In this document: positions 2,535-47,151 of the stretch, in pieces
Position numbering within the stretch: position 1 is the first letter of the stretch
How the letters are laid out: every line of letters starts with the position of its first letter
Source: a virus
Virus record (IMG/VR): IMGVR_UViG_3300047510_003392
Span: 9,234-73,233 of that record
Reading direction: 5' to 3' (one strand)
Length of the DNA: 64,000 nt
Notes under the pieces: model-generated
The model's database searches: none
What the model saw: only the letters and a program-made list of their open reading frames with translations
What the model was told of the DNA's origin: nothing
Translations under genes and position numbers: made by a program

Positions 2535-2589
2535 ATAGTATTCATCAACTATAAATATAGCGTTGTGACATAAAACGTCGTATAAATAC

Positions 2590-3787: not shown

Positions 3788-3794
3788 TTTTAAT

Positions 3795-3822
3795 ATGATA
3801 GAGCATTTAACTAATCTGTCAA
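3795..3822 (-). promoter_or_regulatory. sigma70-type promoter
   Basis: TTGACA-N16-TATCAT on the minus strand just upstream of ATG 3787. Confidence 0.6.
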
Positions 3823-7494: not shown

Positions 7495-7498
7495 AAAT

Positions 7499-8985: not shown

Positions 8986-8986
8986 A

Positions 8987-9808: not shown

Positions 9809-9809
9809 A

Positions 9810-12434: not shown

Positions 12435-13155
12435 CGTTCGATTTCTTAATTGATGGAATGAGAGACAGGCCAAGATTGTATTTTTGGTCCAATTGAATCA
12501 GATTGTGTATTTCTCTTCCGAGTGTGTCATTGGTATATGGTCCACCAGCTTTTAGATAAGACAACTTACCTATACGTTTATCTGTTTGCAATCCTGCGGT
12601 TATATCTGACGAATTTGCTCCCACCGCCTTTGCAACTTTATCTATTTCATTTATAAATGCAATAGACATCGCCAAATATGAATTCAATGCGTGTTTTACC
12701 ATTTCAGCAGACTCCAAACTCATCCAAATTATATCGGAAGACAATGGACGAAACAATTCGGTAAGTACATCTTTTGAGAATCTATCGCATCCAACAACAA
12801 TTCGTTCTGGGTTCAGAAAATCATTTATTGCTCTACCTCGCCTTAGATTTTCTGGAGAACAGGCAATTCTGATATCTGTATATACGTTCTCCAGCATTCT
12901 GCACGTTCCAACTGGAACTTGGGTGGATATCAAAGCAATAGCATTATTTTTGGCAAATGGAAGTACTCTTCCCAACCATTCAAATATAATTTTTGAATCT
13001 GGCTTTCCGTCTTTATCAACCGGCGTGTCATAGCAAACCCAAATAACGTCACTATCTCCAACCTTAGAATCATCAACATTTACTTGATGAAATTGTTCCA
13101 TACAAGCGGCAGTTATATATGCCAAATGTCCGTGTCCTATTACTGATATTTTCAT
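12412..13155 (-). CDS. Shortened UDP-glucose/GDP-mannose dehydrogenase-like protein lacking the catalytic Cys
   Basis: IGHGHLA, DTP, STQVPVGT, SPENLRRG, SAEMVKHALN; the GGSC motif position reads YTNDT; no C-terminal domain. Confidence 0.75.
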   Translation of the reverse strand: MKISVIGHGHLAYITAACMEQFHQVNVDDSKVGDSDVIWVCYDTPVDKDGKPDSKIIFEWLGRVLPFAKNNAIALISTQVPVGTCRMLENVYTDIRIACSPENLRRGRAINDFLNPERIVVGCDRFSKDVLTELFRPLSSDIIWMSLESAEMVKHALNSYLAMSIAFINEIDKVAKAVGANSSDITAGLQTDKRIGKLSYLKAGGPYTNDTLGREIHNLIQLDQKYNLGLSLIPSIKKSNDEHSNNR

Positions 13156-13158
13156 AAT

Positions 13159-13842
13159 TTATCCTTGTCCCATGTTGGCTTGTTTAGACCAGTTTTGGTT
13201 ATAAAACAAGTTTTGCGCACGTTGCCTGTCTATTGTTTTATCATGAATGATAGCCCAATCTACTTCTTTTGGAAGCATGGTGACATATTCCGCACCCATC
13301 ACAGTTTCGTGTAGTGGCTTTTGCCATTGTATCTTTAGACTATTTTTGTATATACGAGATTGATAATCGCCGTGATTCCAATTTATTATTGGTTCATTGC
13401 CAAAATATTCCGGTAATGTACTAAGATGCCATCCCCACATCGCGGCATCTTGCTGAGTTGCTCCTCGTACAATATTTACTCTCGGGACTCTATATAATTC
13501 AACTTTTGGGTTTGATTTTATCAACTCTTGCATATTTTGCAACAGTTCGGGCCGCAGATACTCGTCTGCGTCAAGCTGAACAATATAATCTCCAACACAA
13601 CGCTTGCTACCATAATTTTTATGTTCTGCGAAGTTTTTATTTAGCGCGTGTTGAATTACACTAAATCCGTAGCTTTTTCCTTTTTCGAGTATCTTTTTGG
13701 TATCCTCGTTGTCGGAAAAATCATCGAGAATAACAACTTCGTCGCTAGAAGCATTTGACTCGATGTGAGTGTTGAGCCTCTCAACTAACCCAAGAAGCTC
13801 AACAGTCTCATTCTTACATGTAACCAAATAACTTATTTTCAC
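13159..13842 (-). CDS. Glycosyltransferase family 2
   Basis: ILDDFS, QLDADE, PRVN, DYQSRIY, LHE. Confidence 0.85.
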   Translation of the reverse strand: MKISYLVTCKNETVELLGLVERLNTHIESNASSDEVVILDDFSDNEDTKKILEKGKSYGFSVIQHALNKNFAEHKNYGSKRCVGDYIVQLDADEYLRPELLQNMQELIKSNPKVELYRVPRVNIVRGATQQDAAMWGWHLSTLPEYFGNEPIINWNHGDYQSRIYKNSLKIQWQKPLHETVMGAEYVTMLPKEVDWAIIHDKTIDRQRAQNLFYNQNWSKQANMGQG

Positions 13843-15137
13843 GATGTCGTCGGAGTTATTTTTTTGAATTTTGGAAGCGTAATTCCTACCTTCTTTTCGA
13901 AGACGGGAAGATGTTTGTCTAACACATCTACTAGTACTTTCCCAGCAGCTTCAAGACTAAACTTTTCTGCATTTTGAACACGCAGTTTTTCGGCGTTTGG
14001 AATATAGTTTATATAGTTTGTGTATATATCTTCCAACTTCTGTGCAGCAACGCTGTAGTTTGCATTAAACCACTGACCTTCTTTTACCAGCCATTCGTTG
14101 CACGCACTTGGAGGTACGTTTACCATTGTACCAGGTAACAAGTTTGCAAGATTCTCTGGAAGAAAATCTACGTGACCACTCCAATTAGTAGTAAGTAGCG
14201 GTTTTCCGCTTAGAGTTGCCTCTAGCAACGGTCTTCCAAATCCTTCACCGTGCGTAAGGCTTACGTGAGCTTTTACCTTTGGATGATTATATAAACGATT
14301 CAACTCTGTAGTAGTCAGTTCACCGTGTATTAGGTATATATTAGGAAGAGTTCCAGATATAGGCGCACGAATGTCGTTTATTTTTTTAAGTATTTCGGTT
14401 TTATCTATCTTCGAGAATGTTGCCCCGCTAGTCTTGAGAATCAACGCTGGTGCATTTTTCTTGTTCTTAAATACTTCACTAAATATCTTTACAAGCATTC
14501 CGACATCTTTTCTGTCTGCGCCAAGGTCGCCTTGAATCCAATGTCCTACGAACAGATAGCAGAATGTTTCTGGTATTGCATTTAGTGCAGAATCTATTTC
14601 TTCGGACGGTTCGTTCGTTTTCTTGTAAATACTTGTATCTACCCCCTCGAATACAACTTCAATCGGTTTATTAAGTTGAATTTTCTCTACTACCCCAGTT
14701 CTTTCGTCTCTGCGGTCATAAACAGTTTTTACAAATACTTCTTTGGCAAAATTAGAAGGAACGATATTCAAGTTCATTCTATTAAGACCTTCCAACCACT
14801 CTGGTTTTGGTACAGTACTTTCAATACCCGCCGTCACTCCGATATTATATTTTCCTCGTGGCTGGAATTCGTTTGGAATGGATACTTGCACAAACAATTC
14901 GGGTTGTGCAGTTAGTTGTGTGGTCAATATTCTATTCTTGATTTCTCTAACCATAGGACGGCTTTCGTCGTCCAACATGGTATTGGGGCATACTCCCCAT
15001 CGCATTGGTACGATCTTAACGTCGAACTTATCATACTTGATAATGTCAGCCGCTAATGCGAAGCAATGGTCGCCATATCCAGAGCGCGATGCTATTGGAC
15101 CTTGTATGACACATACTGGTTTAATTTCGTTACTCAT
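13839..15137 (-). CDS. Glycosyltransferase GT4-like
   Basis: SRSGYG, RKDVG, GEGFGRPLLEA, WSGHVDF. Confidence 0.85.
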   Translation of the reverse strand: MSNEIKPVCVIQGPIASRSGYGDHCFALAADIIKYDKFDVKIVPMRWGVCPNTMLDDESRPMVREIKNRILTTQLTAQPELFVQVSIPNEFQPRGKYNIGVTAGIESTVPKPEWLEGLNRMNLNIVPSNFAKEVFVKTVYDRRDERTGVVEKIQLNKPIEVVFEGVDTSIYKKTNEPSEEIDSALNAIPETFCYLFVGHWIQGDLGADRKDVGMLVKIFSEVFKNKKNAPALILKTSGATFSKIDKTEILKKINDIRAPISGTLPNIYLIHGELTTTELNRLYNHPKVKAHVSLTHGEGFGRPLLEATLSGKPLLTTNWSGHVDFLPENLANLLPGTMVNVPPSACNEWLVKEGQWFNANYSVAAQKLEDIYTNYINYIPNAEKLRVQNAEKFSLEAAGKVLVDVLDKHLPVFEKKVGITLPKFKKITPTTS

Positions 15138-15156
15138 TTATATAACCTTTTGTTTG

Positions 15157-15348
15157 TTATGGTGCTGTACCCGGCGTGTTTTGACCTTCTTGTTCTTGAA
15201 TAATAGCTTCCATCTCAGATTTAACATCGTTGATGCGATCTTTGAAGTCAGTCATAACAACTCGCTTTTCCATTTCGATTTCACGAAGTTGCTTGGCAAG
15301 TTCGTAGATTTTTGTCTTTGCTTCTTCTTTAGTCAATGCTTTAGCCAT
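15157..15348 (-). CDS. Hypothetical coiled-coil protein
   Basis: 63-aa ORF in operon with AAGGA RBS. Confidence 0.6.
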   Translation of the reverse strand: MAKALTKEEAKTKIYELAKQLREIEMEKRVVMTDFKDRINDVKSEMEAIIQEQEGQNTPGTAP

Positions 15349-15356
15349 AATGTTCC

Positions 15357-16835
15357 TTATTTGTTATATTTTTTTAGTACTTCATCCTTGTTGATCTTTG
15401 GAATTGGAAATCCAAGACTGTTATTTGGCATGTTGTGCCCAACATATTCGTCGTGACGATGAAGATTAAATCTTTCGCGACCTTTCCAGTTTGCCATCAT
15501 ATTTTCTAAGCCAGATGCCATTTTTTCACACATGCTTTCTGCACTTAGTCCACCAACTCCGCACATCCATTCTCTACCTTCCAGTGCATACTCACGGCGC
15601 TTTTCCTTGCTGGTCAAATACCAATACATAAATGCTTCAGCACAATCTTCCCACTTGGCATAATCGGCAAGAATATATGGAGTAGGAATACTACCTTGCA
15701 TCATTCTTGCACCCGGAAAGATTGGTGTAACCCATCTACCGTGTTTCTTATATCTACCATCGGCATTAGTTCCCCATCCATTTTCAAATTGGACAGGATT
15801 TCCGGCATCGTCTGTAAATCCGCACTGGTCCTGAAGTCCTCCCGTAACCGTAACGATGATTGGAGTACCCGCCATTACACTCTCCGCAGTAGCAATACCA
15901 AATCCCTCGTTGTCGGAAAGATTTACCGTCACATCTGCCATGTTGTAGAGTTGATTCATTCTTTCTGGTAGAACCTTTTCAACGCTGAATATCACATCAT
16001 AGTTCGGGCAAAATGCCTGCTTACACGCGGGCAAATCAGTGCCTGCTTCATCTACTGGGTGTGTATGTAGAAACAATACGCACTTTGCTGCTTCTTCTTT
16101 TGGTAGATTGTCGCAGAATGCTCTGTAGGCAAGCATTATTGTACTGGTTTGCTTACGACGAATATTTCTATTGTTATAGAATATTACAAACTTATAGTCC
16201 TTCTTGAAATACTGTCTGCGTATTAGTTGCAGTTCACTTAGTTCAGCATCTGTGGTCAACGGTCTAAACATCTTGCGATTGATGCCGTGCGGTACATACG
16301 ATACAGTTGTAGGATTATTTAGTGTAGTTCCAAGAATATTCTTTACGATATTTTCTGTCTGCTTGCTGATACAACCAATCCAATCGCACGATTCATAATA
16401 TGGACGATTATACATAGGATATGGAAGATCGTCCCAGATGCTATAGAACCCGATTGGAATCTTCTGACGCAATTCACGCTCGATTTGATATAACCAGATC
16501 CAAAAACGCGGATCAGTAAAATGAAGCAGCGCATCAGGCTTTTCCATCTTAATAACTTCGTTTAGAAGATTGGCGTCGCCATAACCATCAACCGGATATA
16601 GGCGAACGTATGCGTCGTCTATGCCAGCAACTTGGTTGGTGGCTTGGTCAAGATTCATTATCTTGCCTTTTTCAGGATGCGTAACGCTACCTGCCATTTG
16701 TACCCAGTTGTATTTGCCTGCCAAGCCTGTAACAAACTCTCTTGCCATTGTAGCAATACCAGAATGCATTCTCAGGTCATCGCAAAGCAGTATAATCTTC
16801 TTTCTGTCCTTCTGAGGAATATAACTATTTACCAT
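15357..16835 (-). CDS. Glycosyltransferase GT4-like
   Basis: DDLRMHSG, NRNIRRK, NEGFGIATAES, TGGLQDQ. Confidence 0.85.
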   Translation of the reverse strand: MVNSYIPQKDRKKIILLCDDLRMHSGIATMAREFVTGLAGKYNWVQMAGSVTHPEKGKIMNLDQATNQVAGIDDAYVRLYPVDGYGDANLLNEVIKMEKPDALLHFTDPRFWIWLYQIERELRQKIPIGFYSIWDDLPYPMYNRPYYESCDWIGCISKQTENIVKNILGTTLNNPTTVSYVPHGINRKMFRPLTTDAELSELQLIRRQYFKKDYKFVIFYNNRNIRRKQTSTIMLAYRAFCDNLPKEEAAKCVLFLHTHPVDEAGTDLPACKQAFCPNYDVIFSVEKVLPERMNQLYNMADVTVNLSDNEGFGIATAESVMAGTPIIVTVTGGLQDQCGFTDDAGNPVQFENGWGTNADGRYKKHGRWVTPIFPGARMMQGSIPTPYILADYAKWEDCAEAFMYWYLTSKEKRREYALEGREWMCGVGGLSAESMCEKMASGLENMMANWKGRERFNLHRHDEYVGHNMPNNSLGFPIPKINKDEVLKKYNK

Positions 16836-26596: not shown

Positions 26597-26977
26597 TGGT
26601 GGACGTGAGGGGAGTTGAACCCCTGTGCTGTATAATATAACTACAACCATATACATGCTTATCTCTTATAATCCGACTAAGTTTGGTAGAGCACCACTTA
26701 GAAGTTGAGGACTCGTGTTTCTCGCTGTTGTTACGACCCTCGTCCTTACAACAGCAAGCAGATGGTCGAGCGTTTTATTCTATATATCTGCGTCAATAGA
26801 TAAAACGGGTAGCAACTTAGGCTACAGCAACTTCGCTCTTACGGCTTACGCTTAGGAACGATGTCTTAGCAAGATTTCTCTTAGCATTTATTTTTTCCAA
26901 CGGGTATTATACAGAGACATTAGACTCTGTGCATGCGGACTGCATCTACACTATATAGTAGAATCCAGAACACGCCC
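26597..26977 (-). ncRNA. ssrA: tmRNA
   Basis: 5' GGGCGTG / 3' CACGTCC-ACCA acceptor with G3.U70; TTCTGGATTCTAC D-region; GCATGC/GCATGT helix 2; T arm AGGGGTTCAACTCCCCT; tag frame 26885-26817 after AAATAAAT: AKRNLAKTSFLSVSRKSEVAVA*. Confidence 0.93.
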
Positions 26978-35479: not shown

Positions 35480-36286
35480 TTATTCTGGTGCAATAAATCC
35501 AACCTTCTCCACGATTTCTTTACCTTTTGGACTTAGTGTAAACTCTATAAACTTTGCTGCTTGAGGACTTGGTGCTGCATTTACATAATAAAATGTTGGA
35601 CGAGCATATGGATATGTTTTCTTTAGTATAGACTCCTTGGTTGGCAAAGCATTATCAATCGGCACAACTTTTATGCCGGGTGATTTGATATATGCCAATC
35701 CAACATAACCAATGGCATTTGGATTTTTACTTACTTCAGCGAGGATTTGTTCATTGCCAGCCAACTTTTGTGATGACTTTACATAATCACGCTTGTTCAT
35801 TGCCATTTCCTTGAAGTCGGAATATGTGCCAGAAGATGTATTTCTGGTATAGATTGAAATCTTACCTTGCTTTCCACCAATCATAGCCCAATCAGTTACA
35901 TCGCCTGTAAATATTTGTTCTATTTGGCGGCGAGATAGTTTGGCTATTGGATTTTTTGCATTCACGATTATAGCCATTCCATCATATGCGACGATGATTG
36001 GCTTTAGTGTGACGCCTTTTGATGCTGCGGTAGACATTTCGGTTGCCTTTGCTCTACGAGAACTCATTCCAATGTCTGCTGTGCCATCAATAATAGCAGA
36101 CAATCCAGTTGTAGAACCTTCGGCGGCAATTTCAAATGCAACATCTTTGTTGAATGTTTTGTACTCTTCAGCAAGTGTAGGCACAAGCTTTGCTCCAAGC
36201 GTATCTGATCCTTTGATAATCAGTTTCTGGGAATAGCCTATTGGGGCGATTAGCAATGCGATTAGTGATATTAGTATTTTCTTCAT
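35480..36286 (-). CDS. pstS: Phosphate ABC transporter substrate-binding protein
   Basis: Signal peptide, KGSDT, GSTTG, DIGMSSR, RNTSSGT, AIGYVG, YPYARP. Confidence 0.93.
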   Translation of the reverse strand: MKKILISLIALLIAPIGYSQKLIIKGSDTLGAKLVPTLAEEYKTFNKDVAFEIAAEGSTTGLSAIIDGTADIGMSSRRAKATEMSTAASKGVTLKPIIVAYDGMAIIVNAKNPIAKLSRRQIEQIFTGDVTDWAMIGGKQGKISIYTRNTSSGTYSDFKEMAMNKRDYVKSSQKLAGNEQILAEVSKNPNAIGYVGLAYIKSPGIKVVPIDNALPTKESILKKTYPYARPTFYYVNAAPSPQAAKFIEFTLSPKGKEIVEKVGFIAPE

Positions 36287-36292
36287 AATATA

Positions 36293-37528
36293 TTAGAACT
36301 GAATTTGTAGTTGCGAACGAACTCCGCGTGTTGTGGCTTTGGTTGTATTATTCTTTACTTCGCCAGATAATGCCCCAAGTTGGAACTTCATATCTTGACC
36401 TCTGATATACCAGTTTGCTCCAACATAATATTCATTGAAAAGGTTCATATTTGCTGAAGCTGGTGCTGAACGAACAACATCGCTTAGATTTACTCCACGG
36501 TTGTCTGTATCAAGACGCTGATATCTAAAAACAAACTCAATGGTTTCATTGAAATATACCGTAGGTTGAACAAACCAACCATATGGGCTTGCATCATTAT
36601 TTCCTGCACCTTTGTCAATATTGGCATACAGATATTCTGCCATCAGAGTATATCTTAGATATGATACGTCAAGATATAAAGAGTGTATGCTCAAATCATA
36701 TCCCTTTCCTATGTTGGATACTCCAAATCCACCTTGGTCTGGTAATATACCTATGCCATATCCAATAATAGCATTTCCATTTTCAGGCAGCTTGGCGGTA
36801 AATCCAACATTTCCCCATAATGCCTTTTTGTTGTTGCCTGCATTTCCAGATGAAGAAGCACCAGCAAATGTTTCATCTCTTTGTGGGTTTGTTATTGCCG
36901 CACTATATACAAGACCATATTTGTTTGTTAGTTCTTTTTTACCATCAACAAATACTCCTATACGATAGCTTGCTGCACCCAATCTTCTGCCATTGTTGCT
37001 TTCAACGAAATATCTTGTTACTCCAGAACGTTCTATTGAACGTAGATTGCCGCTGGTTGCTCTTTCTTCGTATGCGACATTTACTTTTCTAAGACCAAAG
37101 TTAAAAGTCAAATCTGGCGTTGGTTTATATTCTACAATAGCGTCGTCATATCCACCACTCGCAAAATCATACGTCATTGTTGCTCCCCAGCCAGCACCTA
37201 CGCCAGCCTTGAGTGTAAAATACATACGGCGTGTAAAAAACTGGTCAGTATATGCTGGCTTGGCTGCGGTATGAACATCTGTGCTTAGATTAGCATACTG
37301 AAGTTGCATTCTCATACCTACGCTCAATCTATCCGTGGATTTTCCGCCAGCGATGGCTTGTGATGGTATTGTATTATTTTCTCGCACCAAATCAGCACGT
37401 ATATCTTCTGCCTCCTGATTGGTTAGAATACCTTTTCGTATAAGTGCTTCAATAAGAGCACCGCTGTCTTGAGCGAGAGAAGGTATGATTAGCAACGCAA
37501 ATATCAATGGATATAGAATTTTCTTCAT
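36293..37528 (-). CDS. Phosphate-selective porin (OprO/OprP family)
   Basis: Signal peptide, LIRKGILT N-terminal helix, RR.YF, SS/SG..RSIERS, C-terminal QIQF; co-transcribed with pstS. Confidence 0.8.
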   Translation of the reverse strand: MKKILYPLIFALLIIPSLAQDSGALIEALIRKGILTNQEAEDIRADLVRENNTIPSQAIAGGKSTDRLSVGMRMQLQYANLSTDVHTAAKPAYTDQFFTRRMYFTLKAGVGAGWGATMTYDFASGGYDDAIVEYKPTPDLTFNFGLRKVNVAYEERATSGNLRSIERSGVTRYFVESNNGRRLGAASYRIGVFVDGKKELTNKYGLVYSAAITNPQRDETFAGASSSGNAGNNKKALWGNVGFTAKLPENGNAIIGYGIGILPDQGGFGVSNIGKGYDLSIHSLYLDVSYLRYTLMAEYLYANIDKGAGNNDASPYGWFVQPTVYFNETIEFVFRYQRLDTDNRGVNLSDVVRSAPASANMNLFNEYYVGANWYIRGQDMKFQLGALSGEVKNNTTKATTRGVRSQLQIQF

Positions 37529-37544
37529 ACATCCATACATAGCG

Positions 37545-37584
37545 ATTATAAAAATCTGTGACTATGCTGTCACTAACTTGTAAC
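37545..37584 (-). promoter_or_regulatory. Pho-box-like triple repeat with -10 TATAAT
   Basis: CTGTGAC-N4-CTGTCAC-N4-TTGTAAC (11-bp period, 37556-37584) next to TATAAT (37545-37550), no TTGACA, upstream of porin-pstS. Confidence 0.75.
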
Positions 37585-40674: not shown

Positions 40675-41121
40675 TTATATCTTATAATCTTCGTGCTGTA
40701 TGCTCTTTAGATTATTGTGTATATAATCTACCCAATAATCAAGTTCGTGTGATTCATCTACTTTCAAATGATATTCATTTGGTTGCGTAAACAACTTTGT
40801 TGTATCACTAAAATCTCGCACCGGTTTTCTTGCCATTAATATTACATAAGCATCTTTGGCTCCAAATGCTTCTCGTGCTGCTGCTGTAGGACATACAAAA
40901 TCTGCTATGGCATATACACCTGTTCTATTTACGATATCGCACAATATGCCCATTCTTTTTGCGTGTTCTATTCTATCAGCTACATCAAAAGTAAGATCTT
41001 TATTTATTTTGGCTCTTATTTCATCGGCATTGAAATGAACAGCGTTCATTGCTTTTGCCAACGCAGTAGATAATGTTGTTTTGCCCGAACCGGGTAGTCC
41101 CATAACAAGTATTTTTTTCAT
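40675..41121 (-). CDS. cysC: Adenylylsulfate kinase-like P-loop kinase
   Basis: MGLPGSGKTT, NADEIR, DLTF...RIE, DFVCP. Confidence 0.75.
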   Translation of the reverse strand: MKKILVMGLPGSGKTTLSTALAKAMNAVHFNADEIRAKINKDLTFDVADRIEHAKRMGILCDIVNRTGVYAIADFVCPTAAAREAFGAKDAYVILMARKPVRDFSDTTKLFTQPNEYHLKVDESHELDYWVDYIHNNLKSIQHEDYKI

Positions 41122-41164
41122 AATATTTAAAATATAAATTATTTTTTAATTCTTCAATTTATAA

Positions 41165-41869
41165 TTACATCCACTTGCCATAAATTTTATAATCTTCCGC
41201 ATATCTTTTTTTTACAAATTCTTCTATAATTTTTGATGTCTCGTACTTCTCTACTTTGTTGCTATTGAAATGAAATTTTGGTAATGACTTTGCACTTTTT
41301 TCTTCCATATATTTTTTAACCTTATCCATTTCATTGATATTGAATATATCCGAAAACACAGTTGGATCTCTGCCAATACTCTGTACAATAGAGTTGGTGT
41401 GACTGATTGCTTTTTTCCAAGCCATTTCACGATCTGAGGTTTTTGTTTTTATTCCACGAATAAATTCTTCTACACTTATATATTTTCCAAACACATTATG
41501 TCGCATCACAAGATGAGTATATGCACTATAAAATCTAGAAAGAGGGTCACGGATAACACAAAAAGATTTGGTACTGTCGTTTTTTTTACGACGACGAGGT
41601 ATTTCCAAATGCTGCAATCGCTTGATTATTCTTCTTTGGATTGGAGATTTTCTTTTTAGCATCGCTCTGTCAACCGCACCATTATAAGTGGAAAATTCCA
41701 CATTCATGTCAGATATTTTTTCGTTATTGACTTTGGCAATTGCCTCTATTTCTTTATATACTCCATCATCGTTAATGAGTTCAATCCATCCATTGATGGT
41801 AGTGTTACCACATTTAAACAAACGATAATACAAAAGTTCATCGGGTATTACTTGAATTATTTTTGGCAT
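41165..41869 (-). CDS. Sulfotransferase family 2
   Basis: KCGNTT PAPS loop, RDPLSRFYSAY, Y..DY. Confidence 0.75.
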   Translation of the reverse strand: MPKIIQVIPDELLYYRLFKCGNTTINGWIELINDDGVYKEIEAIAKVNNEKISDMNVEFSTYNGAVDRAMLKRKSPIQRRIIKRLQHLEIPRRRKKNDSTKSFCVIRDPLSRFYSAYTHLVMRHNVFGKYISVEEFIRGIKTKTSDREMAWKKAISHTNSIVQSIGRDPTVFSDIFNINEMDKVKKYMEEKSAKSLPKFHFNSNKVEKYETSKIIEEFVKKRYAEDYKIYGKWM

Positions 41870-42927: not shown

Positions 42928-43021
42928 TGGTAGTCCCAGAGGGAATCGAACCCCCGCTCGGCACTAATCAGGTGCGCACAGGTTATAAATCTGTCGGTGC
43001 TTCCAGTTACACTATGGGACC
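42928..43021 (-). tRNA. tRNA-Ile(TAT) with long variable arm
   Basis: Anticodon loop TTTATAA, V-arm GCAC-CTGATTA-GTGC, CCA. Confidence 0.82.
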
Positions 43022-43072
43022 AAAAGTAAAGAACGATGATAAGTATGGATATTTTTCGTCAGAAGTCAATAA

Positions 43073-44065
43073 CTATTTTTCAATTAAGTTTTGTTTGAAT
43101 ATTTTCCAGCAGTTTTCCCAAGTCCAATATGAACCATTCATCGCAACTATATCACGGTTTAGTTTTAGCGATTTGTTGATACAATCTTCAAGATTATCTC
43201 CCATATATCCAGTCAATCCATCTTGAACAATATCTATTGGACCAGAAACAGGATATGCTGCTATTGGCGTGCCTAAACTCATTGCTTCTATCAAAACTAT
43301 ACCAAATGTGTCTGTTTTGCTGGGAAAACAAAATACATCCGCGTTTATATATTCATTTGCTAAATCTTTTCCGGTTTTGTATCCAAGGAACTTTACATTT
43401 TTATATTTTTTCTCTAAATGTTTTCTATATGGGCCATCACCAACCAAGCGAACTTCATATTTGTCTTGTAGAACACACAAGTCATCCAGATTTTTTTCAA
43501 GGGATATTCTGCCAACATATAGCACAACAGGAACTTCATTATTTTTTCTTTGCGTTGTTGGCGTCAGCAGATTTTTATCAACACCTCTTGTCCATATAAC
43601 CATATCAACGTCAAAATTGTTTTTACTCAGTTCATTCATCATTGACTTGGTAGTAACCAATACTCTGCCAGAATGTTTATGAAACCATCTTACATAAGAA
43701 TATGTGATACACTTTGGTATTTTATACATTTCATTCACATACTCTGGAAACTTTGTGTGATATGAAGTGTTGTATTTGTATTTCTTACTATCACAATATA
43801 GTTTGGCGAAAAGTCCAAGCGGACCTTCGGTGGAAATATGAATATAGTCTGGATTGTATTCTTCTATCTTTTTTCCTAATCCGAATGGCAGGCTCATTTT
43901 TACTTCTGGATATCTTGGCATACTAAAATGCTTATACATTTCCGGTGAAATAAAGCATACCGTATATCCATCATTTTCCGCCTGTATCTTTATATTCTTG
44001 TATGTAGTTACAACGCCGTTTATTTGCGTGAAAAGATTATCCGTTACTATTAGTATCTTTTTCAT
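43073..44065 (-). CDS. agt: GT4 diacylglycerol glycosyltransferase, Agt-like
   Basis: IVTD...QINGVVTT, YPEVKM, HISTEGPLG, TSYHTKFPEY, RWFH, WTRGVD, VGRISLEKN, TDTFGIVLIEA; overlaps plcP. Confidence 0.8.
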   Translation of the reverse strand: MKKILIVTDNLFTQINGVVTTYKNIKIQAENDGYTVCFISPEMYKHFSMPRYPEVKMSLPFGLGKKIEEYNPDYIHISTEGPLGLFAKLYCDSKKYKYNTSYHTKFPEYVNEMYKIPKCITYSYVRWFHKHSGRVLVTTKSMMNELSKNNFDVDMVIWTRGVDKNLLTPTTQRKNNEVPVVLYVGRISLEKNLDDLCVLQDKYEVRLVGDGPYRKHLEKKYKNVKFLGYKTGKDLANEYINADVFCFPSKTDTFGIVLIEAMSLGTPIAAYPVSGPIDIVQDGLTGYMGDNLEDCINKSLKLNRDIVAMNGSYWTWENCWKIFKQNLIEK

Positions 44066-44804
44066 TATAGTGTATCAACTCAAATGTTCCATTATGGTGT
44101 TCTACTATGGCGGTCAATGATTCTACCCAATCGCCGCAGTTCATATAATGAACATCATTTATATGTTTCATTTCTGGATGATGTATATGACCGCATATTA
44201 CGCCAACATATCCTTTTCTTTTACAATGATTGGATATATTAGTCTCAAACTTGAATATGAAATCAACGGCCTTTTTGACGCGATGTTTTAGATATTTGCT
44301 GAAACTCCAATAACCAAATCCAAGTTTATGTCTTATCCAGTTATATTTTGTATTTAGTGCAAGAATAAAGTCATATCCTTTGTCTCCAAGAAAACTAAGC
44401 CACGGAGCCAATCTTGTTATACCATCAAATAAATCTCCGTGAACAACAAGATATTTTTCACCATATACACTAATATGTTCTATTTCATTACATAACTTGA
44501 TGTTTCCTACTTCAAGTTCATATGGCAGCATCAACCTGAAAAACTCATCGTGATTGCCAATAACATATACTATTTTGGTATCATTACGATGTAGTTTCAA
44601 CAATCGTCTAATAACTTCAGAATGGCTGTTTTTCCATTTTGACCTGTTTTGCTGAAACTTCCAACCGTCTATGACATCACCGACAAGATATAGAGTCTCG
44701 CAACTGTTACATTTTAGAAAATTTTCTACCTCTTTCGCCTTGCTATTTTTAGAACCGAGATGCAGGTCGGATATAAAAATAGAGCGATATTTAGGTAGTT
44801 TCAT
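44037..44804 (-). CDS. plcP: PlcP-type phospholipase C (LpxH-like metallophosphoesterase)
   Basis: FISDLHLG, LVGDVIDGW, GNHDE, HGDLFD, LGDKGY, YWSFSKYLK..VK.AV, ICGHIH, NCGDWVES. Confidence 0.85.
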   Translation of the reverse strand: MKLPKYRSIFISDLHLGSKNSKAKEVENFLKCNSCETLYLVGDVIDGWKFQQNRSKWKNSHSEVIRRLLKLHRNDTKIVYVIGNHDEFFRLMLPYELEVGNIKLCNEIEHISVYGEKYLVVHGDLFDGITRLAPWLSFLGDKGYDFILALNTKYNWIRHKLGFGYWSFSKYLKHRVKKAVDFIFKFETNISNHCKRKGYVGVICGHIHHPEMKHINDVHYMNCGDWVESLTAIVEHHNGTFELIHYNEKDTNSNG

Positions 44805-45107
44805 TTAGTCCGCTTTATCTCCAAACATAAACTTGTTGGCAATAACATCTATGTTATGAAATGCTATGCTAACCTTATCTATCATCCAAGGGTCTAACTT
44901 TACAGTTTCACTTGCCATAATCTCTTTTATACGCTTACACTTTTCTTCTATGGCAGTTAGTTGATATTCAATCATATCCTGCTGGCGTTCTGGATTTAGT
45001 TCAACGTCATCCTTTATCATTTTCTGTCCCTTGAACCAGTCCTGATCCATTGCGGCTGTTTCTTCTACAATTTCACGAATAAGTGCTTTAAGTTCTGATT
45101 TCTTCAT
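44805..45107 (-). CDS. Hypothetical protein with MKKSELKALIREIVEE leader
   Basis: Start reassigned to 45107, downstream of terminator and ATATTTAT motif. Confidence 0.65.
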   Translation of the reverse strand: MKKSELKALIREIVEETAAMDQDWFKGQKMIKDDVELNPERQQDMIEYQLTAIEEKCKRIKEIMASETVKLDPWMIDKVSIAFHNIDVIANKFMFGDKAD

Positions 45108-45132: not shown

Positions 45133-45161
45133 AAAAAAACCCAGCATTTACGCTGGGTTTT
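45133..45161 (-). terminator. Intrinsic terminator
   Basis: AAAACCCAGC-ATTTAC-GCTGGGTTTT. Confidence 0.8.
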
Positions 45162-45186
45162 CGTGAGTTGATATATATTAACTATA

Positions 45187-47151
45187 TCAAGGCTTTGGAG
45201 GCAGGAATGTGCCTGTACCAGCATTGACTGGATATACTCCACTCAAGTTGGCAGCAAAACTCAATGCACTCAAATCTGTTACTCCCTTGGCATTGAATGT
45301 AAGTGCCGAGGTCTTTAGCAGATTGGACAGCGTGATACTGCCACCCGCAGTCAGGGTCAAGGGGCCGACCACAGAGTTGGTCGCCTGTGCAGATGTATTG
45401 AAGATGTCCGCACCGCTGGTGACGCTAGTAACGCCGCCGTTCAATAGACCAATGTTAGCAGAAGCAAGTTCAACAACATTGATTGCACCGGTACCAGTAG
45501 TGATAGAGATCAAGCCAAAGTTGTTGTTTGGCTGAGTCAGTGCCACTTCAGCATTGTTGGTGTTTACAGTAACATTACCACGAACATCAGCAGATGTAGC
45601 AGGTACTTGAGTAACTGTGGAGCCCTCAAGACCAACTGTAGATACAGTCAAGTTACCACCAACAACGGTAGTACCAAGAACTGTGCTGCGAGCCTGTGTG
45701 ATATTAGCATCAGCAGTAGCAGTTAGCGTAACATTACCGAGGTTGTTTAGACCAGCAGGGTCGTTAAGAGTAACATTGCCACCAGACAGATTGCTAGTAG
45801 CAGCAGTCACACGGCTAGTAGCCAGCAACTGTACGATGTCGTTCTTGCTAGCAGCAACCAGATTGCCAGTAACAGCAACACGGTTCAAGTTCAGCGTAGC
45901 GTCTTCAAGGATAGTAGCATTACCACCAACGGTCAGACTTACAGGACCAAAACTGTGCTTGGCGCGTGTAATATTAGTGTCGCCAGTTGTAACAAAGGCT
46001 GTTGGACCGTATACGAACAGTCCTTCAGCACCATCAACGATGCTAGGAGCGGTGAATGTAGTGTTACCTGTGCTAGCAATAGCAACCTTATTCAGCGAGA
46101 CGCGGGAGTTGGCAGATACATTAGTATCACCAGTTCCGCTGCTGGCAACATCAGTAAGATTTACCATGTTACCAGACAATGTCAGGTTACCAGAAGCAAG
46201 TGCGGTATAGTTAGTAGTAGCAGCAGTGCTGGCTACAACAATATTGTTACCAGACACAGTCACATTTGTGCTAGAAACTCTGGGTAGAGAAATGTCCTTA
46301 CCAGACACAGCCAGATTAGCAACATTGAGTGTACCAGTTCCCTGCGTAACTGCACCAGCAGCAATATTACCGGTGGCATTGATAGTGATGTTACCCGTGG
46401 ATGTAATAAATCCATTCGGAGCAATCACGACGCTTCCGCCAGATGTAGACACATCAGTCTTGCCGTTGAGCACCATGGGAGCAGATGCAGACGAGCCAAT
46501 CGTGGCTGTGCCACCATAGGTATTGACAACAAGGTTACCAGTTACTACAGCACCACCGATATTAGCAGCACGCGAAGCAATTGTGATGCTGTCACCAACA
46601 GACTGAATGATGGCACCATCATTTACAGTGACACCGTTAACCAGAACGCTGGTGGGTAGATTGTCTTGGCTGGGCAACTTACCATTGGTATTCCAGTATC
46701 CAAGAGATACAGTGGGATCATCCACAGTGCTAACATACAGTCCAGCAACATTGATGGTGCTGGTGCCGCCGATCAAAACGCCGCCCGGATTAAGGATAAA
46801 CACTTTGCCATTGGACTCAATAGCACCGTTGATTGTAGATGCTGCTCCGCCAGTAACAATGTTTAGAACAGATGAACCGGCAGACGGCAGTGTATATTCG
46901 ATGCGTTCACCCGTATTGAATGTGCTTGTACCGCTACCAAATGCCTGCCAAGACAACACGGCCTTGTTTGGTGCAGAAACATTCAGCGTGGTCGCTGTTC
47001 CTGTTACATTTACACCCGTTGTGGTTTGTAGATTGCTGACATCAATGCTAGGAATAGCAAAGACATAACCAGCGAATACAAACGCCATGAACAAAGAAAA
47101 AGTCTTTGTCCAAAACGAGTTATTTCGTGTATTAGTATTATTGTATTTCAT
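45187..47151 (-). CDS. Filamentous haemagglutinin/TPS-domain beta-helical secreted protein
   Basis: Long signal peptide; W..F, VLN.VTGG..S.ING...SNG.VFILNPGG TPS motif; beta-helix repeats. Confidence 0.85.
   Translation of the reverse strand: MKYNNTNTRNNSFWTKTFSLFMAFVFAGYVFAIPSIDVSNLQTTTGVNVTGTATTLNVSAPNKAVLSWQAFGSGTSTFNTGERIEYTLPSAGSSVLNIVTGGAASTINGAIESNGKVFILNPGGVLIGGTSTINVAGLYVSTVDDPTVSLGYWNTNGKLPSQDNLPTSVLVNGVTVNDGAIIQSVGDSITIASRAANIGGAVVTGNLVVNTYGGTATIGSSASAPMVLNGKTDVSTSGGSVVIAPNGFITSTGNITINATGNIAAGAVTQGTGTLNVANLAVSGKDISLPRVSSTNVTVSGNNIVVASTAATTNYTALASGNLTLSGNMVNLTDVASSGTGDTNVSANSRVSLNKVAIASTGNTTFTAPSIVDGAEGLFVYGPTAFVTTGDTNITRAKHSFGPVSLTVGGNATILEDATLNLNRVAVTGNLVAASKNDIVQLLATSRVTAATSNLSGGNVTLNDPAGLNNLGNVTLTATADANITQARSTVLGTTVVGGNLTVSTVGLEGSTVTQVPATSADVRGNVTVNTNNAEVALTQPNNNFGLISITTGTGAINVVELASANIGLLNGGVTSVTSGADIFNTSAQATNSVVGPLTLTAGGSITLSNLLKTSALTFNAKGVTDLSALSFAANLSGVYPVNAGTGTFLPPKP

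What the first reader, a model, noticed from the sequence alone, without database searches (positions are those of the whole stretch)
43073..44804. Phage-encoded PlcP-Agt phospholipid-to-glycolipid remodelling pair
Seen: overlapping genes for an LpxH-like metallophosphoesterase with the PlcP-specific LGDxxY...YWSxSxYLK..VKxAV segment, and a GT4 with the Agt-type signature (TD...Q.NGVV, HI.TEGPLG, TSYHT.FPEY, RWFH, W.RGVD). Known: in P-starved bacteria such as Sinorhizobium, Agrobacterium and SAR11, PlcP cleaves phospholipid head groups to diacylglycerol, and Agt glycosylates it to phosphorus-free glycolipids. Inference: the phage strips phosphorus from the host membrane for nucleotide synthesis while keeping the bilayer intact. 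With pstS and the porin 6-8 kb away, this would be an internal-plus-external phosphorus-scavenging system. I know pstS as a common phage gene but not this lipid pair.
Basis: partly seen in the sequence, partly recalled or inferred. Interest (0 to 1): 0.85.

Follow-up and report, generated by a model that had tools for sequence, protein, structure and literature searches.

The report
Phage-borne phospholipid-to-glycolipid remodelling genes
A large freshwater T4-like phage carries the two bacterial genes that swap phosphorus-containing membrane lipids for sugar lipids, so the virus probably mines its host's membrane for phosphorus, and the same cassette turns up in many other uncultured big phages.

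Summary
Two overlapping minus-strand genes lie at 44037-44804 (255-aa metallophosphoesterase) and 43073-44065 (330-aa GT4).

- **Phosphoesterase:** it is a PlcP, not an LpxH. It scores 56 and 43 bits against LpxH models with cut-offs of 134 and 190. It is 49% and 44% identical to the P. aeruginosa and S. meliloti PlcP homologues, but 24% to E. coli LpxH. A careful ML tree separates it from LpxH (100/99).
- **GT4:** it carries every residue shown essential in the characterised Pelagibacter Agt (GTcp). It is 37% identical to P. aeruginosa Agt1.
- **Contig:** it is viral. A 99%-identical relative links the cassette to rIIA, rIIB, a clamp loader and an RNA ligase, all T4-like genes.
- **Spread:** 135 IMG/VR contigs hold a close PlcP. 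Of the 80 kept, 29 have the Agt-type GT4 directly downstream, 45 a 237-aa GT2, and 3 a UDP-glucose dehydrogenase.
- **Constraint:** dN/dS is about 0.02-0.03 for both genes.
- **Context:** PstS and a phosphate porin lie 5.5-7.6 kb away.

I found no paper describing phage PlcP. Virome surveys list such genes as "lpxH" under LPS biosynthesis. Enzyme activity and the phosphorus-scavenging purpose remain inferred.

The parts
44037..44804 (-). plcP-like gene: a 255-aa Mn-type metallophosphoesterase, the predicted intracellular phospholipase C that releases diacylglycerol
   Evidence: ORF. Pfam Metallophos 45.2 bits. LpxH equivalog models score only 56 of 134 and 42.8 of 190 bits. 48.8% identity to the P. 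aeruginosa and 44.3% to the S. meliloti PlcP homologues, 23.8% over 122 aa to E. coli LpxH. Metal ligands D13, H15, D43, N84, H122, H206 and H208 are invariant. Tree. LpxH-like fold.
43073..44065 (-). agt-like gene: a 330-aa retaining GT4 glycosyltransferase, the predicted UDP-sugar:diacylglycerol glycosyltransferase
   Evidence: ORF. Pfam Glycos_transf_1 and Glyco_transf_4. GRISLEKN and FPSKTDTFG motifs and the H103/D252 dyad, matched against the GTcp features in PMC8231724. 36.8% identity over 329 aa to P. aeruginosa Agt1. GT-B model with pLDDT 90.6, nearest MshA, BshA and PimA.
44805..45107 (-). conserved ORF of about 100 aa directly upstream; its stop abuts the plcP start. Function unknown, and it may be co-transcribed
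   Evidence: the start at 45107 is my reading of the internal ATG after the terminator. A homologue precedes plcP only in the nearest relatives L033-L040. No Pfam family.
45135..45162 (-). terminator-like hairpin (12-bp stem plus T run) that closes the upstream TPS-domain gene and marks the 5' edge of the three-gene unit
   Evidence: with the sequence. This is a consensus match only.
35480..36286 (-). pstS, the periplasmic phosphate-binding protein (context: phosphate uptake from outside the cell)
   Evidence: PBP_like_2 130.1 bits. TIGR02136 231.8 bits against a cut-off of 206.6. phrog_5385.
36293..37540 (-). phosphate-selective porin O/P family protein (context)
   Evidence: PF07396 36 bits against a cut-off of 20.9, covering the whole profile. 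No NCBIfam or PHROG family.

Best explanation
The two genes are a phage-borne copy of the bacterial PlcP-Agt lipid-renovation pathway, carried as an auxiliary metabolic cassette by a T4-like phage of about 230 kb from lakes.

During infection the PlcP-like phosphoesterase would cut the phosphorylated head group off host glycerophospholipids, leaving diacylglycerol (DAG). The Agt-like GT4 would then add a sugar from a UDP-sugar to DAG. This gives phosphorus-free glycolipid (monoglycosyl- and possibly glucuronosyl-DAG), so the bilayer is kept.

The released phosphate esters would enter the host pool and support synthesis of the large phage genome when phosphate is scarce. The phage's PstS and phosphate porin would work alongside this from outside the cell.

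What is shown here: gene integrity, family membership by sequence, motifs, tree and synteny, viral origin, spread among phages, and purifying selection.

What is inferred: the two enzyme activities (my odds about 0.8) and the phosphorus-economy purpose (about 0.6).
For: **PlcP identity**
- The protein falls below both LpxH equivalog cut-offs (whole-contig search).
- It is 48.8% identical to the P. aeruginosa PlcP homologue and 44.3% to the S. meliloti one, against 23.8% over 122 aa to E. coli LpxH. That is the range characterised PlcPs show to each other: 46-47% in PMC8528852 and 51% in PMC9239053. My two comparators are 47% identical to each other.
- The lid segment LGDxxY...YWSxSxYLK...VKxAV is shared with both comparators and with phage Mosig, and is absent from E. 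coli LpxH.
- The careful ML tree (36 rows, 260 columns) splits 4 LpxH rows from 32 PlcP-like rows at 100/99. The window sits in a 30-row clade (98/97) that includes both named PlcPs.
- Two gammaproteobacterial genomes that hold a PlcP-like gene also hold a separate true LpxH over the cut-off, at 211 and 283 bits.

**Agt identity**
- All residues whose mutation abolishes GTcp activity have counterparts with matching spacing: G17, G81, G84, H103, T159, R160, R186, K191, D252, T253, F254, G255, E260 and W316.
- Of these, 10 are invariant in 41 aligned GT4 rows. R160 is R in 40 and W316 is W in 40.
- It is 36.8% identical to P. aeruginosa Agt1. It shares only short local matches with the other GT-like proteins of the window.

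**Synteny**
- The order plcP then agt, close together or overlapping, is the commonest bacterial arrangement (PMC4796936).
- I saw it in P. aeruginosa and in 9 of 29 bacterial loci on the same strand.

**Viral origin**
- The window lies in an IMG/VR record estimated 32% complete, with 17 tRNAs and a tmRNA.
- Record G011 has a 99%-identical cassette and is colinear with the contig over 12 segments at 83-99% identity. It carries RIIA (337 bits), RIIB (238 bits), a clamp loader, an RNA ligase and ribonucleotide reductase on the same 41-kb record.

**Spread among phages**
- 135 of 141 candidate stretches in IMG/VR encode a relative.
- Of the 80 kept, 27 have a full and 2 a truncated Agt-type GT4 directly downstream, 45 have a 237-aa GT2/GT21-like glycosyltransferase, and 3 have a UDP-glucose dehydrogenase.
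- G006 is a complete 369-kb record with terminal repeats and a terminase. It has the pair at 65.5% and 58.2% identity but shares little else with this contig.

**Constraint**
- dN/dS is 0.025 for plcP and 0.022-0.029 for agt against L033-L036.

**Phosphorus link**
- PstS and a phosphate porin are in the window.
- In Pelagibacter phage Mosig the PlcP homologue (46%) sits back-to-back with the gene annotated 'putative phosphate ABC transporter', which matches the window's PstS at 26% over 240 aa.
- The near-identical stretch is held by runs labelled freshwater, lake-water or aquatic metagenome, among 15 studies in all.
Against: - No enzyme assay exists for any phage copy.
- No PhoB-type control is visible. 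Pho-box-like sites are no commoner than chance (7 found, 7.1 expected) and none lies before plcP.
- The cassette sits among many glycan genes (GT2s, a sulfotransferase, an APS kinase, an epimerase), so a surface-glycan role cannot be dismissed from context alone.
- pstS is not near plcP in the other viral loci, within 6 kb on either side.
- Evidence for transcription is weak: three short contigs in two RNA libraries, where DNA carry-over is possible.
- PlcP releases phosphate esters, not free phosphate. No phage phosphatase was found among the 35 window ORFs scanned.
- 12 of 41 related GT4s have Glu instead of Asp at the catalytic position, a change that cut GTcp activity by more than 90%. The window copy has Asp.
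- The named comparators are strain homologues that I take to be orthologues of SMc00171 and PA3219/PA3218. I did not verify the locus tags.
Confidence: 0.68

Rival explanations
1. The chemistry is the same (phospholipid to DAG to glycolipid), but the benefit to the phage is not phosphorus supply. Changing the envelope lipids could block superinfecting phages, alter sensitivity to cationic antimicrobials or to grazers, or stabilise the membrane and control lysis timing.
For: - Bacterial lipid renovation changes antibiotic sensitivity (PMC8528852 abstract), ciliate predation (PMC9457565 abstract) and phage attachment (PMC9938194 title and abstract).
- The cassette lies in a region full of surface-glycan genes, next to a TPS-domain protein.
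- No Pho box was found before plcP.
- pstS is not linked to plcP in most viral loci.
Against: - The window also carries PstS and a phosphate porin.
- Mosig places its PlcP homologue beside a gene annotated as a phosphate ABC transporter that matches the window's PstS at 26%.
- In bacteria the pathway is induced specifically by phosphate starvation.
- The carriers are very large genomes (up to 369 kb), which have a high phosphorus demand per virion. That last point is my inference.
Confidence: 0.17
2. The pair acts on another lipid-linked substrate. The phosphoesterase would cleave a UDP- or pyrophosphate-linked lipid (LpxH-like, or an undecaprenyl-linked intermediate). The GT4 would be one of the phage's many LPS or capsule glycosyltransferases. 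This is the reading implied by current 'LpxH / LPS biosynthesis' annotations.
For: - The nearest solved fold is LpxH: ranks 1-24 in Foldseek, TM 0.50-0.56.
- Source annotations name the relatives LpxH.
- Virome surveys list viral lpxH under LPS biosynthesis (PMC10653327, PMC9611531).
- The neighbouring genes are glycan genes.
Against: - The protein falls below both LpxH equivalog cut-offs.
- Identity to E. coli LpxH is 24%, limited to the N-terminal core.
- It is separated from LpxH at 100/99 in the tree.
- True LpxH coexists as a separate gene in 2 of the 5 genomes checked.
- The GT4 carries the DAG-binding and catalytic residues of GTcp.
- The cassette moves as a unit between unrelated phages, independently of the glycan neighbours.
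- None of the 35 window ORFs scanned matched a lipid A gene.
Confidence: 0.1
3. Artefact: the cassette is cellular DNA mis-assembled or mis-binned into a 'viral' record, or it is a decaying passenger with no function.
For: - The record is a linear fragment estimated 32% complete.
- No terminase was found in the 5 related fragments (0 of 5).
- Some near relatives sit in bacterial MAG bins: L004, L005, L006 and L123.
Against: - The cassette is physically linked to rIIA and rIIB on record G011.
- It is present in a complete 369-kb record with terminal repeats and a terminase.
- Four independent IMG/VR records carry it at 99% identity with the same flanks.
- DNA contigs of other runs cover GT4, plcP and part of the upstream ORF. 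One is a 2087-nt contig in X10 spanning 42996-44998.
- dN/dS is about 0.02-0.03.
- The MAG-bin copies are at least 88% identical to viral ones and sit on short contigs, so they look mis-binned.
Confidence: 0.02

Closest known systems
PlcP, the intracellular phospholipase C of phosphate-starved bacteria (S. meliloti; Phaeobacter sp. MED193_17359; Pelagibacter HTCC7211 PB7211_983; P. aeruginosa PA3219; M. trichosporium OB3b)
   Same: It has the same metallophosphoesterase core with all metal ligands, and the same lid motifs. It is 44-49% identical to the S. meliloti and P. aeruginosa homologues, sits in the same tree clade, and has the same position directly upstream of a DAG glycosyltransferase.
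   Different: It is encoded by a virus. It belongs to a distinct clade of viral copies that are at least 60% identical to it (100/98 support), with Pelagibacter phage Mosig as sister (93/89). Bacterial copies are at most 51% identical. No Pho box is recognisable. It shows strong purifying selection inside phage populations.
Agt / GTcp, the GT4 UDP-sugar:diacylglycerol glycosyltransferase (A. tumefaciens atu2297; Pelagibacter HTCC7211 PB7211_960 = WP_008545403.1; P. aeruginosa Agt1 PA3218)
   Same: Similar length (330 against 334 aa). It has the His-Asp dyad with Asp rather than Glu, the GRxxxEKN and FPSxTDTFG motifs, the Gly-rich motif, and the Thr-Arg and C-terminal Trp implicated in DAG binding. 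It is 36.8% identical to P. aeruginosa Agt1 and lies downstream of plcP.
   Different: It is virus-encoded. The sugar donor is unknown: GTcp takes three UDP-sugars whereas P. aeruginosa Agt1 takes only UDP-glucose. I could not align GTcp itself, so the residue matches rest on motif spacing and on the alignment with P. aeruginosa Agt1.
LpxH, the UDP-2,3-diacylglucosamine diphosphatase of lipid A synthesis (the name current annotations give)
   Same: It has the same overall fold, a metallophosphoesterase core with an inserted helical lid, and the same metal-binding motifs.
   Different: It scores 56 and 43 bits against cut-offs of 134 and 190. Identity is 17-24%. The lid sequence differs. It forms a separate clade and coexists with true LpxH in bacteria.
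Known phage phosphorus-stress auxiliary genes (pstS and, from recall, phoA and phoH of cyanophages and pelagiphages)
   Same: They are host-derived genes carried by T4-like aquatic phages and tied to phosphate scarcity. pstS is present in this window and next to the PlcP homologue in Mosig.
   Different: Those genes bring in or signal external phosphate. This cassette would release phosphorus already locked in the host's own membrane.
Pelagibacter phage Mosig gene Mosig_00120 and Synechococcus phage S-SRM01 QPX48289.1 (deposited as LpxH-type hydrolases)
   Same: They are homologues in cultured T4-like (Kyanoviridae) phages, at 46% and 35% identity.
   Different: Neither record gave a hit to the Agt-type GT4 at E <= 1e-5. 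The S-SRM01 copy lacks the YWS lid motif and sits on a long branch. Neither term 'phosphate' nor 'lipid' occurs in the Mosig announcement.

Membership tests
PlcP (lipid-remodelling phospholipase C) | Calcineurin-like metallophosphoesterase with complete metal-binding motifs (DxH, GD, GNHD, H, GHxH) | tested here: met
   Pfam Metallophos 45.2 bits. D13, H15, D43, N84, H122, H206 and H208 are invariant in 7 sequences and in 29 sequences.
PlcP (lipid-remodelling phospholipase C) | Groups with experimentally studied PlcPs rather than with LpxH | tested here: met
   Careful ML tree: the LpxH/PlcP-like split has 100/99 support, and the window is inside a 98/97 clade with the S. meliloti and P. aeruginosa homologues. 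Identities are 44.3% and 48.8% against 23.8% to E. coli LpxH. Caveat: the comparators are strain homologues, not the exact published locus tags.
PlcP (lipid-remodelling phospholipase C) | PlcP-type lid segment (LGDxxY ... YWSxSxYLK ... VKxAV) | tested here: met
Present in the window, P. aeruginosa, S. meliloti (with small changes) and Mosig; absent from E. coli LpxH.
PlcP (lipid-remodelling phospholipase C) | Lies immediately upstream of a diacylglycerol-using lipid synthesis gene (agt, pgt or btaAB) | tested here: met
   29-nt overlap with the GT4. This arrangement is described in PMC4796936 and seen in P. aeruginosa.
PlcP (lipid-remodelling phospholipase C) | Induction by phosphate starvation through a Pho box | tested here: inconclusive
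   The E. coli-type consensus with up to 3 mismatches gave 7 hits against 7.1 expected, none before plcP. The host and its Pho box are unknown, and a phage promoter may drive the unit.
PlcP (lipid-remodelling phospholipase C) | Residues shown essential by mutagenesis, and Mn dependence (Wei et al. 2018, AEM) | not tested
   The paper is not held. Supplementary Fig. S5 of PMC9239053, which lists the key residues, is closed.
PlcP (lipid-remodelling phospholipase C) | Hydrolyses PE, PG or PC to diacylglycerol plus a phospho-head group | not testable with these tools
   Needs expression and lipidomics.
Agt / GTcp clade of GT4 | Retaining GT-B fold of family GT4 | tested here: met
   Pfam Glycos_transf_1 87.3 bits and Glyco_transf_4 46 bits. 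The model has pLDDT 90.6, and its best matches are MshA, BshA and PimA with TM up to 0.80.
Agt / GTcp clade of GT4 | Catalytic His-Asp dyad (Asp in place of the usual Glu) | tested here: met
   H103 and D252. The feature is described in PMC8231724. His is invariant in 41 aligned rows; the second position is Asp in 29 and Glu in 12.
Agt / GTcp clade of GT4 | UDP-sugar motifs GRVAxEKN and FPSxTDTFG | tested here: met
   GRISLEKN (185-192) and FPSKTDTFG (247-255), compared with the motifs quoted.
Agt / GTcp clade of GT4 | Residues whose Ala mutants inactivate GTcp (G16, G82, G85, H104, R163, R190, K195, D256, T257, F258, G259, E264, W320), plus T162 | tested here: met
   The counterparts are G17, G81, G84, H103, T159, R160, R186, K191, D252-G255, E260 and W316, with spacing equal to GTcp or within 2 residues. 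GTcp itself could not be fetched, so the correspondence rests on spacing and on the alignment with P. aeruginosa Agt1.
Agt / GTcp clade of GT4 | Well over 25% identity to clade members and under 25% to other GT4 enzymes (criterion stated in PMC8231724) | tested here: met
   36.8% over 329 aa to P. aeruginosa Agt1 and 34-43% to the GT4s beside bacterial plcP. Only short local matches to four other GT-like proteins of the window. 13-21% to solved GT4 structures.
Agt / GTcp clade of GT4 | Transfers glucose, galactose or glucuronic acid from a UDP-sugar to diacylglycerol | not testable with these tools
   Needs expression and lipidomics.
LpxH (lipid A pathway) | Scores above the curated equivalog cut-offs | tested here: not met
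   NF003743 56 bits against 134, and TIGR01854 42.8 bits against 190.35. 51.8 bits in the whole-contig search.
LpxH (lipid A pathway) | Accompanied by other lipid A genes | tested here: not met
   None of the 35 window ORFs scanned matched a lipid A enzyme. The other ORFs were not scanned.
Phage auxiliary metabolic gene | Host-type metabolic gene inside a bona fide viral genome, flanked by viral genes, intact and under selection | tested here: met
   IMG/VR record. Linked to rIIA, rIIB, a clamp loader and an RNA ligase in the 99% relative G011. Present in the complete record G006 with terminal repeats and a terminase. dN/dS 0.02-0.03.
Phage auxiliary metabolic gene | Expressed during infection | tested here: inconclusive
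   Two RNA-library runs hold short contigs (200-234 nt, 95-99% alike) inside agt and across the plcP start. These are assembled contigs, so they give no strand, and DNA carry-over is possible.

The most novel reading that the evidence does not exclude
Converting membrane phospholipid to glycolipid is a general, so far unrecognised strategy of large aquatic phages. A mobile plcP cassette has spread among unrelated T4-like and jumbo phages. It always travels with a sugar-transfer partner: an Agt-type GT4, a 237-aa GT2 seen here only in viral or mis-binned contigs that may make a different glycolipid, or a UDP-glucose dehydrogenase. Many of the 'viral lpxH / LPS biosynthesis' entries in virome surveys would then really be plcP. 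If so, viral infection moves phosphorus from host membranes into virions and changes the lipid make-up of lake and ocean bacteria, a term missing from aquatic phosphorus budgets.
Probability: 0.45. Interest if true: 0.8.

Novelty: new variant of a known kind. Interest (0 to 1): 0.7.

Why it matters
Phage genes for phosphate uptake (pstS) are textbook examples of viral metabolic reprogramming, but they only reach external phosphate. A phage-encoded PlcP-glycosyltransferase cassette would let the virus release phosphorus already built into the host membrane while keeping the cell intact until lysis.

The consequences would be practical:
- It would correct a systematic mis-annotation, since these genes are filed as LpxH under LPS biosynthesis.
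- It would add a viral route to glycolipid production in phosphorus-poor waters.
- It can be tested directly, because one carrier of the plcP gene, Pelagibacter phage Mosig, is in culture.

A 2025 study notes that little is known about how lipid remodelling strategies appear in infected cells (PMC12282109).

Tried and rejected
- **Papers not held:** the S. meliloti PlcP paper (PNAS 2010) and the PlcP manganese and mutagenesis paper (AEM 2018). PlcP's experimentally essential residues therefore could not be checked.
- **Supplements closed:** Table S2 of PMC4796936 and Fig. S5 of PMC9239053 may bear on the residue lists and on the plcP neighbourhood types.
- **PHROGs:** only weak, generic hits for both genes.
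- **PDB by sequence:** no PlcP or Agt structure. The best hit is LpxH at 32 bits; the GT4 gives C-terminal matches only.
- **Pho box:** no more sites than chance.
- **Promoters:** promoter-like sites are fewer than in shuffles, 9 against 15.0, so nothing is claimed.
- **Terminase search:** PF17289 found nothing in 5 related fragments (0 of 5), nor in G009 or G010. Viral origin was settled through G011 instead.
- **Relation to G006:** I tested whether the window phage is a close relative of the complete 369-kb record G006. It is not. Apart from the cassette, only 5 of the contig's 172 ORFs matched at E <= 1e-8.
- **Donor or host lineage:** unresolved. In 301 genomes of the order of G005, 143 have a PlcP-like gene. 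The best identity is 49%, apart from one contig at 60% that looks mis-binned.
- **Transcription:** RNA-library contigs cover only 3 small pieces, so they give no proof of expression.
- **Literature:** searches for phage-encoded PlcP returned no paper describing it. The library lacks most subscription journals.
- **Not used:** Complex prediction, because no binding between the two proteins is claimed.
Full report
**1. What is at the coordinates**

One search lists two minus-strand ORFs that fill the stated interval. One is 44037..44804 (255 aa) and the other 43073..44065 (330 aa). The second starts 29 nt inside the first.

- Pfam assigns the first ORF to the calcineurin-like phosphoesterases (Metallophos, 45.2 bits against a cut-off of 21.5).
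- Pfam assigns the second to GT4-type glycosyltransferases (Glycos_transf_1 87.3 bits, Glyco_transf_4 46 bits).
- Upstream lies a TPS-domain protein (45187-47151), then a strong terminator-like hairpin (45162-45135).
- After the hairpin comes a conserved ORF of about 100 aa whose stop codon abuts the phosphoesterase start.
- Downstream of the pair come tRNA-Ile and tRNA-Met.

**2. PlcP or LpxH?**

The curated LpxH equivalog models score 56 bits (cut-off 134) and 42.8 bits (cut-off 190), so the protein fails the LpxH membership test.

PLSDB holds some chromosomal-size or chromosomal-type records under plasmid labels. These gave named comparators:
- An S. meliloti record of 3.7 Mb with a single homologue.
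- A P. aeruginosa record in which the homologue overlaps a downstream 'glycosyltransferase family 1' gene by 4 nt. This is the PA3219-PA3218 arrangement described in PMC8528852 (passages read).

The window protein compares as follows:
- 48.8% identical over 246 aa to the P. aeruginosa protein.
- 44.3% to the S. meliloti protein.
- 46.3% to the Pelagibacter phage Mosig protein.
- 23.8% over 122 aa to E. coli LpxH.

The two bacterial comparators are 47% identical to each other. This matches the 46% reported for PA3219 against S. meliloti PlcP, so I take them to be the studied proteins' orthologues. I did not verify the locus tags.

The seven-sequence alignment shows all metal ligands invariant (D13, H15, D43, N84, H122, H206, H208). 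It also shows that the lid segment (LGDxxY, YWSxSxYLK, VKxAV) is shared with the PlcP comparators and Mosig but not with LpxH.

A careful ML tree gave these results:
- It used 36 rows. 34 were picked by hand from 53 representatives clustered at 88% identity, and 2 were the named comparators. Rows L121, L122 and L028 had been dropped earlier as duplicates or partial.
- Four LpxH-model hits separate from 32 PlcP-like rows with 100/99 support.
- The window sits in a 98/97 clade with both named PlcPs.
- An earlier quick tree of all 53 representatives agreed.

Two gammaproteobacterial genomes that carry a PlcP-like gene also carry a separate true LpxH over the cut-off (211 and 283 bits). In the other three genomes no match reached the cut-off.

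The AlphaFold model (pLDDT 81.4, low in the lid) matches LpxH structures best (ranks 1-24, TM 0.50-0.56, 17-23% identity). LpxH is thus the nearest solved fold but not the family.

**3. Agt or some other GT4?**

PMC8231724 (passages read) defines the Agt/GTcp clade by three sets of features:
- A His104-Asp256 dyad.
- The motifs GRVAxEKN and FPSxTDTFG.
- A list of residues whose alanine mutants are inactive, including the DAG-contacting Arg163 and Trp320.

The window GT4 has G17, G81, G84, H103, T159, R160, R186, K191, D252, T253, F254, G255, E260 and W316. It also has GRISLEKN and FPSKTDTFG, with spacing equal to GTcp's or within two residues.

In an alignment of 41 GT4s (the window, 39 from plcP loci, and P. 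aeruginosa Agt1) these positions are invariant or nearly so. The exceptions are T159 and D252, which is Asp in 29 rows and Glu in 12.

Other comparisons:
- Identity to P. aeruginosa Agt1 is 36.8% over 329 aa.
- Four other GT-like proteins of the window give only short local matches.
- Solved GT4 enzymes are 13-21% identical.
- The model (pLDDT 90.6) is a GT-B fold nearest MshA, BshA and PimA.
- The two best NCBIfam hits are lipid glycosyltransferases: N-acetylglucosaminyl-PG synthase and MGlc-DAG synthase. Both fall far below their cut-offs.

I could not fetch GTcp itself. The residue correspondence therefore rests on spacing and on P. aeruginosa Agt1.

**4. Synteny**

PMC4796936 (passages) reports that an agt homologue downstream of plcP is the commonest neighbourhood, found in more than 25% of the isolates analysed. 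In my 29 bacterial loci a GT4 at 36-52% identity lay directly downstream on the same strand in 9, and on the opposite strand in one.

**5. Is the contig a phage?**

- The window is bases 9234-73233 of an IMG/VR record of 73,233 bases. The record is linear and estimated 32% complete, which implies roughly 230 kb.
- It carries 17 tRNAs and a tmRNA, all on one strand. It also has an HNH endonuclease and exonuclease-type genes.
- Record G011, whose cassette is 99% identical, is colinear with the contig's last 21 kb (12 segments, 83-99% identity) and extends 28 kb further.
- That extension encodes RIIA (337.5 bits), RIIB (238.5 bits), a clamp loader (265 bits), an RNA ligase (254 bits) and both ribonucleotide reductase subunits. 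The cassette and T4-type genes therefore sit on one 41-kb record.
- The terminase domain PF17289 was found in 3 of 5 large related records and in 0 of 5 small fragments.

**6. Spread among viruses**

In the deposited phage collection (50,697 records), 5 records hold a relative of the PlcP:
- Mosig at 46%.
- S-SRM01, deposited twice, at 35%.
- One faecal contig at 42%.
- One metagenomic phage at 25%.

The GT4 has no relative above 29% identity at 80% coverage or more.

In IMG/VR, 135 of 141 candidate stretches encode a relative. The 80 best are 61-99% identical and lie on contigs up to 369 kb. What lies directly downstream of plcP in those 80:

| Downstream gene | Loci |
|---|---|
| Agt-type GT4, full length | 27 |
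| Agt-type GT4, cut by the contig end | 2 |
| 237-aa GT2/GT21-like glycosyltransferase (Glycos_transf_2 64-66 bits; Glyco_transf_21 up to 32 bits) | 45 |
| UDP-glucose dehydrogenase | 3 |
| Something else or nothing called | 3 |

So 77 of 80 viral plcP genes are followed by a gene of sugar transfer or sugar-nucleotide supply.

G006 is a complete 369-kb record with terminal repeats, a terminase and distant rIIA and rIIB. It has the pair at 65.5% and 58.2% identity. Apart from the cassette, only 5 of this contig's 172 ORFs matched it at E <= 1e-8. The cassette has therefore moved between unrelated large phages.

In the tree the close viral copies form one clade (100/98), with Mosig as sister (93/89). 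Bacterial copies are at most 51% identical. In 301 genomes of one bacterial order, 143 had a PlcP-like gene. The best identity was 49%, apart from one contig at 60% that looks mis-binned.

**7. Constraint and occurrence**

Against the four 99% relatives, plcP has 24 differences in 768 nt (21.5 synonymous). agt has 23-27 differences in 993 nt (21-24 synonymous). This gives dN/dS of 0.022-0.029. Three of the four relatives are the same variant.

20 of the 24 listed public runs, from 15 studies, hold the stretch or part of it. 3 of them are marked as possible sources of this DNA. The runs holding half or more of the sampled words are mostly labelled freshwater, lake-water or aquatic metagenome; five carry an uninformative label.

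Two RNA-library runs hold short contigs inside agt and across the plcP start. This is only a weak hint of transcription.

**8. Phosphorus context**

PstS (TIGR02136, 231.8 bits against a cut-off of 206.6) and a Porin_O_P protein lie 5.5-7.6 kb away on the same strand. In Mosig the PlcP homologue is back-to-back with the gene annotated 'putative phosphate ABC transporter', which matches the window's PstS at 26% over 240 aa.

A Pho-box-like site lies 16 nt upstream of the porin start. Such sites are no commoner in the window than chance.

**9. Mechanism, and what is inferred**

From the established bacterial pathway, the reaction sequence would be:
1. PlcP cleaves glycerophospholipid to DAG plus a phospho-head group.
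2. Agt transfers a sugar from a UDP-sugar to DAG.

That the phage proteins do the same follows from homology, conserved catalytic residues and conserved gene pairing. It has not been shown.

That the benefit is phosphorus for genome replication follows from three things: the pathway's starvation role in bacteria, the pstS and porin neighbours, and the large genomes of the carriers. It remains an inference. A membrane-surface role is the main rival.

**10. Novelty**

Six literature searches found no description of phage-encoded PlcP or Agt.
- Pelagimyophage papers do not mention it.
- Two virome papers list viral 'lpxH' under LPS biosynthesis.
- A global ocean AMG catalogue discusses other lipid genes.
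- A 2025 virocell study says little is known about lipid remodelling in infected cells.

The library lacks most subscription journals, so 'not found' is limited to what it holds. I rate this a new variant of a known kind: a known bacterial pathway, recruited and diversified by phages.

Noticed in passing
L049:6746-7459 and 44 other viral loci (for example L058:6910-7629): In 45 of the 51 viral plcP loci without an Agt-type GT4, a 237-aa GT2/GT21-like glycosyltransferase sits directly downstream. Its best NCBIfam hit is an arsenosugar-type GT at 60-64 bits, below the cut-off. Beside plcP it was seen only in viral contigs and in two MAG-bin contigs that look mis-binned. It may make a different glycolipid.
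   Followed up: partly
L048:3254-4081, L052:4180-5007, L057:3676-4500; also L032:5988-6557: A UDP-glucose dehydrogenase gene follows plcP in three viral loci. It follows plcP-agt in a marine gammaproteobacterial MAG. It would supply UDP-glucuronic acid, the donor for glucuronosyl-DAG.
   Followed up: partly
window 26597-26977: ARAGORN calls a tmRNA gene with a 22-residue tag peptide inside the phage fragment. It sits with 17 tRNA genes spread over 38.9-62.9 kb, all on the minus strand and interleaved with small ORFs and HNH endonucleases.
   Followed up: no
window 45187-47151: A 654-aa protein with a two-partner-secretion (TPS) N-terminal domain (60 bits) and DUF5649 repeats lies just upstream of the cassette. 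It is 99% identical in one close relative but only 79% in three others whose cassette is 99% identical, so it is a fast-changing, possibly host-recognition, protein.
   Followed up: no
window 44805-45107: A conserved ORF of about 100 aa with no known family sits between a terminator-like hairpin and plcP. It is kept in that position only in the nearest relatives (L033-L040, 52-75% identity) and could be a third member of the transcription unit.
   Followed up: partly
window 40675-41869: A sulfotransferase (Sulfotransfer_2, 40.5 bits) lies next to a short APS-kinase-like protein (53 bits) just downstream of the cassette. This suggests phage-directed sulfation of some acceptor. The kinase, but not the sulfotransferase, is kept in the 99% relatives.
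   Followed up: no
window 769-16835: A large glycan-building cluster holds a GT2, a GT1-like protein, an epimerase/dehydratase, an aminotransferase, an FkbM methyltransferase and two large GT4-like proteins. It also holds a nucleotide-sugar dehydrogenase ORF (12412-13155) that matches only positions 72-298 of the 413-position model, so that gene may be split or truncated.
   Followed up: no
window 37556-37573: A Pho-box-like direct repeat (3 mismatches to the E. coli-type consensus) lies 16 nt upstream of the phosphate-porin start. Taken alone it is not significant: 7 such sites in the window against 7.1 expected.
   Followed up: partly
L004, L005 (= L122, L121), L006, L123: Contigs in bacterial MAG bins named Haliscomenobacter, Polynucleobacter and Bacteroidia carry viral-clade plcP. 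L004 and L005 are at least 88% identical to many IMG/VR copies. The same Polynucleobacter and Haliscomenobacter bins also hold separate, more distant plcP-like genes (L118 and L120, 44% and 37% identical to the window's). The viral-clade contigs look like mis-binned phage DNA.
   Followed up: partly
G011 (L145, L146) compared with own contig 52188-73233: The close relative packs the region that corresponds to 21 kb of this contig into 11.6 kb. The tRNA and small-ORF region of the window is therefore swollen by insertions compared with its relative.
   Followed up: no
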